From Escherichia coli (GTDB lineage: Bacteria; Pseudomonadota; Gammaproteobacteria; Enterobacterales; Enterobacteriaceae): DNA of 64,000 nt. The stretch lies in assembly GCF_022846255.1 (NCBI RefSeq), contig NZ_AP025682.1; one strand, written 5' to 3'. Numbering within the stretch: position 1 is the stretch's first letter; each line of letters starts with the position of its first letter. Below, one piece after another: positions 6,001-8,593 of this stretch. A program made the position numbers.

Positions 6001-8593
6001 TTTTCCGGTTTAAGGCGTTTCCGTTCTTCTTTGCCGTAACTTAATGTTTTTATTTAAAACACCCCCTGAAAAGAAAGGAAACGACAGGTGCTGAAAACGG
6101 GCTTTTTGGCCTCTGTCGTTTCCTTTCTCTGTTTTTGTCCGTGGAATGAACAATGGAAGTCAACAAAAAGCAGCTGGCTGACATTTTCGGTGCGAGTATC
6201 CGTACCATTCAGAACTGGCAGGAACAGGGAATGCCCGTTCTGCGAGGCGGTGGCAAGGGTAATGAGGTGCTTTATGACTCTGCCGCCGTCATAAAATGGT
6301 ATGCCGAAAGGGATGCTGAAATTGAGAACGAAAAGCTGCGCCGGGAGGTTGAAGAACTGCGGCAGGCCAGCGAGACAGATCTCCAGCCAGGACTATTGAG
6401 TACGAACGCCATCGACTTACGCGTGCGCAGGCCGACGCACAGGAGCTGAAAAATGCCAGAGACTCCGCTGAAGTGGTGGAAACTGCATTCTGTACTTTCG
6501 TGCTGTCGCGGATCGCAGGTGAAATTGCCAGTATTCTCGACGGGATCCCCCTGTCGGTGCAGCGGCGTTTTCCGGAACTGGAAAACCGACATGTTGATTT
6601 CCTGAAACGGGATATCATCAAAGCCATGAACAAAGCAGCCGCGCTGGATGAACTGATACCGGGGTTGCTGAGTGAATATATCGAACAGTCAGGTTAACAG
6701 GCTGCGGCATTTTGTCCGCGCCGGGCTTCGCTCACTGTTCAGGCCGGAGCCACAGACCGCCGTTGAATGGGCGGATGCCAATTACTATCTCCCGAAAGAA
6801 TCCGCATACCAGGAAGGGCGCTGGGAAACACTGCCCTTTCAGCGGGCCATCATGAATGCGATGGGCAGCGACTACATCCGTGAGGTGAATGTGGTGAAGT
6901 CTGCCCGTGTCGGTTATTCCAAAATGCTGTTGGGTGTTTATGCCTACTTCATAGAGCATAAGCAGCGCAACACCCTTATCTGGTTGCCGACGGATGGTGA
7001 TGCCGAGAACTTTATGAAAACCCACGTTGAGCCGACCATACGTGATATTCCGTCGCTGCTGGCGCTGGCCCCGTGGTATGGCAAAAAGCACCGGGATAAC
7101 ACGCTCACCATGAAGCGTTTCACCAATGGTCGTGGCTTCTGGTGCCTGGGCGGTAAAGCGGCAAAAAACTACCGTGAAAAGTCAGTGGATGTGGCGGGTT
7201 ATGATGAACTTGCTGCCTTTGATGATGATATTGAACAGGAAGGCTCTCCGACGTTCCTGGGCGACAAGCGTATTGAAGGCTCGGTCTGGCCAAAGTCCAT
7301 CCGTGGCTCCACGCCCAAAGTGAGAGGCACCTGTCAGATTGAGCGTGCAGCCAGTGAATCCCCGCATTTTATGCGTTTTCATGTTGCCTGCCCGCACTGC
7401 GGGGAGGAGCAGTACCTTAAATTTGGCGATAAAGAGACGCCGTTTGGCCTCAAATGGACGCCGGATGATCCCTCCAGCGTGTTTTATCTCTGCGAACATA
7501 ATGCCTGCGTCATCCGCCAGCAGGAGCTGGACTTCACTGATGCCCGTTATATCTGCGAAAAGACCGGGATCTGGACCCGTGATGGCATTCTCTGGTTTTC
7601 GTCATCCGGTGAAGAGATTGAGCCGCCGGACAGCGTGACCTTTCACATCTGGACGGCGTACAGCCCGTTCACCACCTGGGTGCAGATTGTCAAAGACTGG
7701 ATGAAAACGAAAGGGGATACGGGAAAACGTAAAACCTTCGTGAACACCACGCTCGGTGAGACATGGGAAGCGAAAATCGGTGAACGTCCGGATGCTGAAG
7801 TGATGGCAGAGCGGAAAGAGCATTATTCAGCGCCCGTTCCTGACCGTGTGGCTTACCTGACTGCCGGTATCGACTCCCAGCTGGATCGCTACGAAATGCG
7901 CGTATGGGGATGGGGGCCGGGTGAGGAAAGCTGGCTGATTGACCGGCAGATTATTATGGGCCGCCACGATGATGAACAGACGCTGCTGCGTGTGGATGAG
8001 GCCATCAATAAAACCTATACCCGCCGGAATGGTGCAGAAATGTCGGTATCCCGTATCTGCTGGGATATTGGCGGGATTGACCCGACCATTGTGTATGAAC
8101 GCTCGAAAAAGCATGGGCTGTTCCGGGTGATCCCCATTAAAGGGGCATCCGTCTACGGTAAGCCGGTGGCCAGCATGCCACGTAAGCGAAACAAAAACGG
8201 GGTTTACCTTACCGAAATCGGTACGGATACCGCGAAAGAGCAGATTTATAACCGCTTCACACTGACGCCGGAAGGGGATGAACCGCTTCCCGGTGCCGTT
8301 CACTTCCCGAATAACCCGGATATTTTTGATCTGACCGAAGCGCAGCAGCTGACTGCTGAAGAGCAGGTCGAAAAATGGGTGGATGGCAGGAAAAAAATAC
8401 TGTGGGACAGCAAAAAGCGACGCAATGAGGCACTCGACTGCTTCGTTTATGCGCTGGCGGCGCTGCGCATCAGTATTTCCCGCTGGCAGCTGGATCTCAG
8501 TGCGCTGCTGGCGAGCCTGCAGGAAGAGGATGGTGCAGCAACCAACAAGAAAACACTGGCAGATTACGCCCGTGCCTTATCCGGAGAGGATGA

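What the first reader, a model, noticed from the sequence alone, without database searches (positions are those of the whole stretch)
6381..6450. Terminase small subunit gene nu1 carries a 1-nt deletion frameshift
The reading frame matches lambda Nu1 up to ...ASETDLQPG, then shifts and stops at TGA 6447-6449. The remaining Nu1 sequence ([34 protein letters not shown]... to the normal C-terminus) is intact in the other frame. The window reads CCAGGACTATTGAG where I recall lambda having CCAGGAACTATTGAG, so one A is missing near 6392. The A gene downstream is intact. This would abolish the DNA-recognition subunit of terminase, unless it is a sequencing error.
Basis: partly seen in the sequence, partly recalled or inferred. 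Interest (0 to 1): 0.6.

Follow-up and report, generated by a model that had tools for sequence, protein, structure and literature searches.

The report
Frameshifted terminase gene in decaying prophage
A lambda-like prophage in an E. coli chromosome has truly lost one base in its small-terminase gene nu1 and also carries a stop codon in its head-protease gene C, so this is an ordinary, recently disabled prophage rather than a sequencing error or a new mechanism.

Summary
nu1 (window 6153-6697) is 545 nt instead of 546. One base is missing between 6391 and 6392: the window reads CCAGG-ACT, lambda reads CCAGGAACT, and the closest relatives read CCAGGGACT. Frame 0 gives Nu1 residues 1-80, then 18 foreign residues, then TGA at 6447-6449. 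Residues 81-181 remain open in the -1 frame.

It is not a sequencing error. The exact 98-aa product occurs in two GenBank E. coli assemblies and in several independent read sets. All 28 chromosomal genes checked and 31 of 33 phage genes checked in the window are intact.

None of 5,793 nu1 copies in 5,426 complete E. coli genomes matches the deletion-bearing stretch. Adding the base back gives a protein identical to intact relatives, so the lesion is recent.

Gene C has an amber codon (CAG to TAG) at 11084-11086, three codons before the nu3 start, and the same related assemblies share it.

No slippery site or long homopolymer supports recoding. The cos site and the other late genes are intact.

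Verdict: early decay of a defective lambdoid prophage. This is a known kind of event and of low interest.

The parts
6153..6697 (+). nu1 (small terminase subunit, TerS) pseudogene, 545 nt instead of 546
   Evidence: 98.9% identical to lambda nu1 and 99.1% to E. coli EC38 nohD, one gap in each case. Alignment. Adding one G back gives a 181-aa protein identical to Nu1 of PhiR63_1 and O26 11368.
6391..6392 (+). Site of the 1-nt deletion, at the boundary of codons 80 and 81 (GGG/GGA ACT has become GG ACT)
   Evidence: The gap column is shared by the window and L006-L015 and is absent from lambda, EC38, PhiR63_1, O26 11368, A10 and VCSW7.
6153..6449 (+). Truncated product ORF of 98 aa: Nu1 residues 1-80 (the whole winged-HTH DNA-binding and dimerisation domain) plus 18 out-of-frame residues, with stop TGA at 6447-6449
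   Evidence: Matches PDB 6HN7_B (TerS 1-98) at E=7e-49 and 1J9I (residues 1-68) at E=1e-40. Matches phrog_57 profile positions 11-88 of 199. PF07471 is recorded for this product.
6473..6697 (+). Orphaned 3' part of nu1: a 74-aa ORF with a GTG start, equal to Nu1 residues 108-181 (self-association and gpA-binding region)
   Evidence: Matches phrog_57 profile positions 114-188 of 199. The same 74-aa ORF is called on 293 contigs of other E. coli with broken nu1.
6672..8597 (+). Gene A (large terminase subunit), intact, 641 aa; its start overlaps the end of nu1 as in lambda
   Evidence: 98.3% identical to lambda A, no gaps, no internal stop.
5930..6130 (+). cos region. The 12-nt cohesive-end sequence at 5964-5975 is GGGCGGAAGGCG (lambda has GGGCGGCGACCT). 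The cosB-region sequence downstream is nearly identical to lambda; I placed R3, R2 and R1 there from memory.
   Evidence: Alignment. The same cosN variant occurs in 45 IMG/VR contigs and in E. coli A10 and VCSW7, with intact nu1. Variation at bp 7-12 of the cohesive end is described as common in PMC4669245.
10379..11698 (+). Gene C (S49 prohead protease) with an amber nonsense codon at codon 236; the truncated product is 235 aa
   Evidence: TAG at 11084-11086 where lambda and EC38 have CAG. The exact 235-aa product is BDH32615.1 and GDA26582.1. The allele occurs in L006 and L007 only among 68 loci. No exact match among 2,986 C copies in complete E. coli genomes.
11093..11698 (+). nu3 (scaffold protein, nested in frame within C), intact, 201 aa; it starts three codons after the amber

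Best explanation
This is a real, heritable loss of one base (GGG to GG at codons 80/81). It has recently turned nu1 of a lambda-like prophage into a pseudogene.

Shown: translation from the normal start gives the complete N-terminal winged-helix DNA-binding and dimerisation domain (residues 1-80). It then leaves the frame inside the flexible linker (residues 66-98) and stops after 18 foreign residues. The oligomerisation and gpA-binding part (residues ~100-181) is no longer attached.

Inferred: no small subunit can anchor gpA (TerL) at cosB, so accurate nicking at cosN and packaging initiation should fail.

Shown: the same prophage also has an amber codon in gene C. It removes the Nu3-like C-terminal half of the protease.

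Inferred: that half is thought to target the protease into the prohead, so head maturation should fail as well. The prophage is therefore at an early stage of decay. It cannot make infectious particles alone. Because its cos site and the other 31 phage genes checked are intact, a helper phage or recombination could still rescue it.
For: One-base gap against lambda and five other intact relatives, and a gene length of 545 nt.

The assembly is otherwise clean. The window has no N, and 28 of 28 chromosomal genes (26.9 kb) and 31 of 33 phage genes are open with no frameshift.

The exact 98-aa product is in BDH32610.1 (locus tag TRECRb50_14260, contig of 4.94 Mb) and GDA26550.1 (GCA_005387665.1). 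It is also on contigs from DRR102846, ERZ929318, DRR322657 and SRR22784467.

L006, L007, L008 and L013 share the window's private SNP as well as the deletion. L007 is 100% identical to the window over 5615-11199, which spans both lesions, then differs at 20 sites from 11200 onwards, so it is a different strain or recombinant.

L008 is the same lineage with a further 20.6-kb deletion running from nu1 into stf.

The C amber is shared by L006 and L007.

The repaired gene differs from PhiR63_1 nu1 by one synonymous base, so the lesion is recent.

Domain boundaries: TerS 1-98 is a soluble dimeric DNA-binding domain, residues 100-181 bind TerL, and residues 66-98 form a linker (PMC6739421). Anchoring by TerS is needed for accurate cosN nicking (PMC4669245).

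Other null alleles of nu1 are common in E. coli prophage remnants. One example is the 92-aa allele P0003, found in 315 index blocks.
Against: I could not inspect any reads.

Several of the short Logan contigs that carry the same 98-aa product (L009, L012) show other homopolymer indels. Those may be read errors and do not count as independent support.

The two GenBank assemblies may come from one laboratory or collection.

The left half of the prophage (int, immunity, replication) lies outside the window, so its overall state is unknown.

Loss of function is inferred from domain knowledge. It was not tested here.
Confidence: 0.86

Rival explanations
1. Sequencing or assembly artefact: a homopolymer under-call (GGG read as GG) in the source assembly, with nu1 actually intact.
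For: The deletion lies in a short G run. Some Logan contigs with the same product also carry other homopolymer indels, which suggests error-prone reads (L009, L012). No complete RefSeq E. coli genome has the allele.
Against: The same allele, with the same private flanking SNP, occurs in two GenBank assemblies and in separate read-set and metagenome assemblies that differ elsewhere. No other frameshift was found in about 50 kb of coding sequence in the window. The linked C amber is a substitution, not an indel, and it travels with the deletion. A run of three G is too short to be a typical error site.
Confidence: 0.05
2. Programmed recoding: a -1 ribosomal frameshift or transcriptional slippage restores full-length Nu1 from the shifted gene.
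For: A -1 shift anywhere in 6353-6447 would join the two frames. A shift right after GGA would recreate the exact wild-type protein.
Against: The N-terminal ORF contains no X XXY YYZ heptamer, and the overlap zone contains no homopolymer of 5 or more. Every intact relative examined is in frame: 5,793 places in complete E. coli genomes and 30 of 30 in IMG/VR. The arrangement is therefore not conserved.
Confidence: 0.02
3. Exaptation: the stand-alone Nu1 DNA-binding domain is kept as a decoy. It would occupy cosB, or form dead heterodimers with the TerS of incoming lambda-specificity phages in the way PICI Rpp proteins do, and so protect the host.
For: The product retains the whole domain that is known to be a soluble cosB-binding dimer, including the dimer-interface residues I11, F12, G13, S43, A44, I47 and A51. 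The Rpp precedent shows that interfering with the TerS DNA-binding-domain dimer blocks lambda packaging. Other nu1 alleles truncated at about the same point (stop after codon 92) are widespread.
Against: In lambda, nu1 is transcribed only from the Q-dependent late operon (my own knowledge); I did not look for any lysogen-active promoter here. The allele is rare: 0 of 5,793 places in complete E. coli genomes. It is one synonymous change away from an intact gene, so it has no history of selection. It is accompanied by a plain nonsense mutation in C and, in one relative, by a large deletion. This is the pattern of neutral decay. The PADLOC hit to mad1 reflects only generic HTH similarity.
Confidence: 0.04
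4. Two-piece small terminase: the 98-aa N-terminal peptide and the 74-aa C-terminal ORF are both made and reassemble non-covalently into a working TerS.
For: Both halves are open, and together they cover the family profile (phrog_57 positions 11-88 and 114-188). The 74-aa ORF has a GTG start 24 nt after the stop.
Against: Residues 81-107 are missing from both pieces. By eye, no obvious Shine-Dalgarno sequence precedes the GTG at 6473. Nothing known links the DNA-binding domain to the C-terminal part other than the polypeptide chain. The same split in Qin-type remnants sits in clearly dead prophages.
Confidence: 0.02

Closest known systems
Bacteriophage lambda gpNu1 (TerS; Pfam PF07471 Phage_Nu1, phrog_57; NP_040580, 181 aa)
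   Same: Same position directly after cos and overlapping the start of gene A. 98.9% nucleotide identity. The repaired protein differs from lambda Nu1 only by A75T and L132I.
   Different: One base is missing at codons 80/81, so the polypeptide ends at 98 aa and lacks residues 81-181, which form the oligomerisation and gpA-binding part.
Engineered N-terminal Nu1 constructs used for structures: TerS residues 1-98 (PDB 6HN7, with RppC) and residues 1-68 (PDB 1J9I)
   Same: The natural truncated product keeps residues 1-80. This covers the same winged-HTH fold and dimer interface that these constructs show to be soluble and dimeric.
   Different: The last 18 residues here are out-of-frame sequence. 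The constructs are laboratory tools, not natural alleles, and on their own they support no packaging.
nohA / nohD: Nu1 homologues in the cryptic E. coli K-12 prophages Qin and DLP12, and the stop-after-codon-92 nu1 allele in Qin-type remnants
   Same: These are nu1 homologues left in defective lambdoid prophages. The 92-aa allele gives the same pattern of an N-terminal fragment plus the 74-aa ORF.
   Different: Those remnants have already lost most structural genes. Here all late genes from A to tfa are still present, and only nu1 and C are broken, so this is a much earlier stage of decay. The lesion is also different (a 1-nt deletion at codon 81).
Lambda Nu1 and C amber mutants of classical genetics
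   Same: Null mutations in the same two essential head genes. The expected phenotype is the same: no cos cleavage or packaging, and defective prohead maturation. This statement rests on my own knowledge of lambda genetics and was not checked against a paper here.
   Different: The lesions here arose naturally in a resident prophage and are inherited vertically in a host lineage.

Membership tests
Lambda-type small terminase subunit Nu1/TerS (PF07471, phrog_57) | N-terminal winged helix-turn-helix DNA-binding domain that dimerises | tested here: met
   Residues 1-80 are intact. PDB 1J9I matches at E=1e-40 over residues 1-68 and 6HN7_B at E=7e-49. phrog_57 matches at E=5e-29.
Lambda-type small terminase subunit Nu1/TerS (PF07471, phrog_57) | One polypeptide of about 181 aa that joins the DNA-binding domain to the oligomerisation and TerL-binding C-terminal part | tested here: not met
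   The frameshift at codon 81 puts a stop at 6447-6449. The C-terminal part survives only as a separate 74-aa ORF.
Lambda-type small terminase subunit Nu1/TerS (PF07471, phrog_57) | Gene located directly downstream of cos (cosN, cosB) and overlapping the start of the large subunit gene A | tested here: met
   cos lies at about 5930-6130, nu1 starts at 6153, and A starts at 6672 inside the end of nu1.
Lambda-type small terminase subunit Nu1/TerS (PF07471, phrog_57) | Supports cosB-dependent cos cleavage and packaging together with gpA | not testable with these tools
   This needs an in vitro cos-cleavage assay or complementation of a lambda Nu1 amber mutant.
Defective (cryptic) lambdoid prophage | Inactivating lesions in genes essential for lytic growth | tested here: met
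   The nu1 frameshift and the amber in gene C at codon 236. Both are absent from complete E. coli genomes.
Defective (cryptic) lambdoid prophage | Integrated in the bacterial chromosome and inherited vertically | tested here: inconclusive
   Chromosomal genes flank the right end (argW at 33655-33729, then yfdC, mlaA, fadL). The same double-mutant segment occurs in at least two strains. The left end and attachment sites lie outside the window.
Defective (cryptic) lambdoid prophage | Fails to yield plaque-forming particles on induction | not testable with these tools
   This needs mitomycin C induction and plating.
Programmed -1 ribosomal frameshift (as in lambda G-T) | Slippery heptamer X XXY YYZ in the zero frame within the zone where the two frames overlap | tested here: not met
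   No such heptamer anywhere in 6153-6447, and no homopolymer of 5 or more in 6353-6447.
Programmed -1 ribosomal frameshift (as in lambda G-T) | The two-frame arrangement is conserved among relatives | tested here: not met
   None of 5,793 places in complete E. coli genomes matches the deletion-bearing stretch, and 30 of 30 complete nu1 in IMG/VR are single 181-aa ORFs.

The most novel reading that the evidence does not exclude
The stand-alone Nu1 DNA-binding domain (98 aa) is not just debris. When late genes are trans-activated by an incoming lambdoid phage, it could act as a prophage-encoded packaging inhibitor. It would either sit on the invader's cosB or form dead heterodimers with its TerS, much as PICI Rpp proteins do. 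On this reading, repeated truncation of nu1 just after the DNA-binding domain in E. coli prophage remnants would reflect selection.
Probability: 0.04. Interest if true: 0.55.

Novelty: already known. Interest (0 to 1): 0.12.

Why it matters
It matters little beyond annotation. The locus should be annotated as a nu1 pseudogene and a C pseudogene in a defective lambda-like prophage, not as hypothetical proteins.

It is a clean example of a very early stage of prophage decay. There are two point lesions in the head and packaging module, and the cos site and all other late genes are still intact. A relative has already lost 20.6 kb. Such prophages remain a source of genes, and of a packageable cos site, for helper or recombining phages.

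Only the low-probability decoy reading would have wider interest.

Tried and rejected
- **Source genome.** An exact-pattern scan of GTDB representative genomes for the deletion junction found nothing, so it did not identify the source. A later exact-protein look-up pointed to E. coli locus tag TRECRb50_14260. No paper mentions that strain.
- **Host outside E. coli.** I first suspected this because the chromosomal flank is only 97.2% identical to the best complete genome. A gene-by-gene comparison showed a mosaic, with fadL at 100% and mnmC at 93%. I dropped the idea.
- **Degenerate cosN.** I suspected the unusual cosN was a third lesion. The same variant occurs in 45 viral contigs and in strains with intact nu1. 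Variation at bp 7-12 of the cohesive end is reported to be tolerated. I rejected this.
- **Support from diverged contigs.** I considered the diverged Logan contigs that carry the same 98-aa product as evidence for an old or recurrent allele. L009 and L012 have other homopolymer indels, and L011 has a different base missing. I count only the contigs that share the window's haplotype.
- **L008 as a Qin-type remnant.** Its deletion junction differs from that of K-12 Qin, so I rejected this.
- **Recoding.** The check was negative.
- **Defence annotation.** PADLOC gave only a generic HTH hit to mad1.
- **Left half of the prophage.** I could not walk upstream to see it, because the complete genome is not in the contig index.

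Full report
**What is at the coordinates.** The window carries the late region of a lambda-like prophage. It runs from the nin and Q region (about 100-1900) through a porin gene and the lysis genes (3762-4914) to cos (about 5930-6130). Next come nu1, A, W, B, C/nu3, D, E and the tail genes, ending with stf and tfa at 28990.

nu1 lies at 6153-6697 and is 545 nt long, against 546 in lambda and every intact relative. A four-way alignment with lambda J02459, phage PhiR63_1 and the E. coli O26 11368 prophage shows one gap column. The window reads CCAGG-ACT, lambda reads CCAGGAACT, and the two closest relatives read CCAGGGACT. The missing base falls between window 6391 and 6392, at the boundary of codons 80 and 81.

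Frame 0 gives 98 aa: Nu1 residues 1-80, then LLSTNAIDLRVRRPTHRS, then TGA at 6447-6449. From 6392 the -1 frame reads TIEYERHRL...EYIEQSG* without a break. Gene A (6672-8597) is intact. The only nuance is that, relative to the nearest relatives, the lost base is a G of a GGG run.

**Real mutation or sequencing error.**
- *Assembly quality.* The window has no N. All 28 chromosomal genes I compared with a reference (26.9 kb) are open and free of frameshifts. So are 31 of the 33 phage genes checked.
- *GenBank records.* The exact 98-aa product is recorded as BDH32610.1 (locus tag TRECRb50_14260, on a 4.94-Mb contig, probably the source of the window). It is also recorded as GDA26550.1 in the draft GCA_005387665.1.
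- *Independent assemblies.* The product is also called on contigs assembled from DRR102846, ERZ929318 (a metagenome), DRR322657, SRR22784467 and others.
- *Shared haplotype.* L006, L007, L008 and L013 carry the deletion and also the window's private synonymous T at nu1 nt 333.
- *Distinct strains.* L007 is 100% identical to the window from 5615 to 11199. It then differs at 20 sites, all at 11200 or beyond. It is therefore a different strain or recombinant that shares the mutant segment.
- *Further decay in a relative.* L008 is the same lineage with a further 20.6-kb deletion joining nu1 (6614) to stf (27204) at a short microhomology. Its junction differs from that of K-12 Qin.
- *Contigs I discount.* L009 and L012 show other homopolymer indels, and L011 has lost a different base. 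I do not count them as support.

Taken together, a sequencing artefact is unlikely. I put it at about 5%.

**How rare and how old.**
- None of 5,793 homologous places in 5,426 complete E. coli genomes matches the 70 nt around the lesion without a gap.
- The junction is absent from IMG/VR and from the GTDB representative genomes.
- Adding one G back gives a protein identical to Nu1 of PhiR63_1 and O26 11368. The repaired gene differs from PhiR63_1 by one synonymous base.
- The lesion is therefore recent and private to a small lineage.

**A second lesion.**
- Translating all late genes showed an internal stop in gene C (10379-11698) at codon 236. The window has TAG at 11084-11086 where lambda and EC38 have CAG.
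- The stop lies three codons before the ATG of the nested nu3 gene (11093), and nu3 itself is intact.
- The exact 235-aa product is in the same two GenBank assemblies (BDH32615.1 and GDA26582.1).
- The allele is present in L006 and L007 only among the 68 loci fetched.
- It has no exact match among 2,986 C copies in complete E. coli genomes.
- The truncated protein keeps the S49 protease region. It loses the Nu3-like C-terminal half, which is thought to bring the protease into the prohead. That role is established lambda biology from my own knowledge and was not tested here.

**Mechanism.**
- According to PMC6739421, lambda TerS residues 1-98 form a soluble dimeric winged-HTH DNA-binding domain.
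- The same paper describes residues 66-98 as a mobile linker and residues 100-181 as the TerL-binding part.
- The 98-aa product matches PDB 6HN7_B and 1J9I and phrog_57 positions 11-88. The orphan 74-aa ORF (6473-6697) matches phrog_57 positions 114-188.
- The frameshift therefore cuts the protein in the linker. DNA recognition is probably retained, but it is uncoupled from gpA.
- I infer that no functional terminase holoenzyme can form at cos. Together with the C amber, the prophage should not be able to make infectious particles on its own.
- The cos site itself looks usable. The cosB-region sequence is nearly identical to lambda; I placed R3, R2 and R1 in it from memory.
- The unusual cohesive-end sequence GGGCGGAAGGCG (5964-5975) is a natural variant. 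It occurs in 45 IMG/VR contigs and in E. coli A10 and VCSW7, always with intact nu1 where the gene is complete. Variation at bp 7-12 is reported as common and tolerated.
- A helper phage of lambda packaging specificity, or recombination, could therefore still mobilise or rescue this DNA. This is inference.

**Rivals.**
- *Recoding.* This is not supported. There is no X XXY YYZ heptamer in the N-terminal ORF and no homopolymer of 5 or more in the 6353-6447 overlap zone. No relative examined has the two-frame layout.
- *Two-piece TerS.* This is unlikely. Residues 81-107 are missing from both pieces, and by eye the GTG at 6473 has no obvious ribosome-binding site.
- *Decoy.* The most interesting reading is that the free DNA-binding domain acts as a decoy against incoming lambdoid phages, by analogy with PICI Rpp proteins. 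The retained dimer interface is compatible with it. So is the wide occurrence of another nu1 allele truncated after codon 92 in Qin-type remnants. Against it: the allele is rare and young, it sits next to a plain nonsense mutation in C, a relative has a large deletion, and nu1 is a late gene that is not expressed in a lysogen (the last point is from my own knowledge of lambda). I give it about 4%.

**Comparison with known things.** Cryptic and defective lambdoid prophages with damaged packaging genes are well known. Examples are nohA in Qin and nohD in DLP12 of K-12 and the widespread 92-aa nu1 allele. This case is an earlier stage of the same process. It fails the membership test for a functional Nu1, because it is not a single 181-aa polypeptide. 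It meets the test for a defective prophage as far as sequence alone can show.

**Verdict.** Two things are added: the lesion is genuine and inherited, and the same prophage also carries an amber in gene C. This is ordinary prophage decay. Novelty is none in kind, and interest is low (0.12).

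Noticed in passing
window 11084-11086 (gene C, 10379-11698): Amber nonsense codon (CAG to TAG) at codon 236 of the prohead protease gene C, three codons before the nu3 start at 11093. It is shared with L006 and L007 and has no exact match in complete E. coli genomes.
   Followed up: yes
window 5964-5975 (cosN): The 12-nt cohesive-end sequence is GGGCGGAAGGCG, not lambda's GGGCGGCGACCT. It differs at bp 7, 8, 9, 10 and 12. The same variant occurs in 45 IMG/VR contigs, in E. coli A10 and VCSW7, and in some ~46-kb plasmid records, with intact nu1 wherever I checked. 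It is probably a functional natural variant.
   Followed up: partly
window 2077-3234 (-): An OmpC-family porin gene (NCBIfam PRK10554, 530 bits) lies on the opposite strand between the Q-like antiterminator (1504-1887) and the lysis cassette (3762-4914). This is a lambdoid 'moron' of the nmpC type.
   Followed up: partly
window 29045-33729: Between the tail-fibre end of the prophage and the chromosome lie four features. These are a tRNA-Arg(CCT) gene (argW, 33655-33729, minus strand), an adjacent P4-type integrase (32336-33529, minus strand), a 479-aa ORF (30434-31873) with no hit in NCBIfam, PHROGs or PADLOC, and a 222-aa ORF (29045-29713, minus strand) matching phrog_2132 of unknown function. 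This may be a separate small island at argW.
   Followed up: partly
window 29863-30017: A second, partial copy of the 3' part of the tail-fibre assembly gene tfa (about 90% identical to lambda tfa nt 409-563) lies downstream of the complete tfa at 28406-28990.
   Followed up: no
L008 (ENA ERZ929318 metagenome contig), junction at L008 ~1030-1036: This is the same prophage lineage, with the nu1 deletion, the private SNP and the variant cosN. It has a 20.6-kb deletion that joins window 6614 (nu1) to 27204 (stf) at a short microhomology. The junction differs from that of K-12 Qin.
   Followed up: yes
L065-L068 (contigs carrying P0003): A different nu1 null allele (92 aa, stop after codon 92) followed by the same 74-aa ORF is widespread in Qin-type prophage remnants. 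It appears in 315 index blocks, some with intact A, W and portal genes and some with A fused to tfa.
   Followed up: partly
window 11200-12416 versus L007: The window and DRR102846 are identical from 5615 to 11199. All 20 differences lie at 11200 or beyond, which indicates a recombination boundary inside nu3.
   Followed up: partly
window 46800-48320 and 54874-56880: The chromosomal flank is a mosaic relative to the best complete E. coli genome. fadL is 100% identical, but the yfc fimbrial subunit genes are 85-92% and mnmC is 93%.
   Followed up: no
window 6153-6317 (Nu1 residues 1-55): The Nu1 N-terminal domain matches the PADLOC model mad1 (MADS defence system, a 60-aa HTH protein) at E=6e-12. 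This is most likely generic winged-HTH similarity.
   Followed up: no
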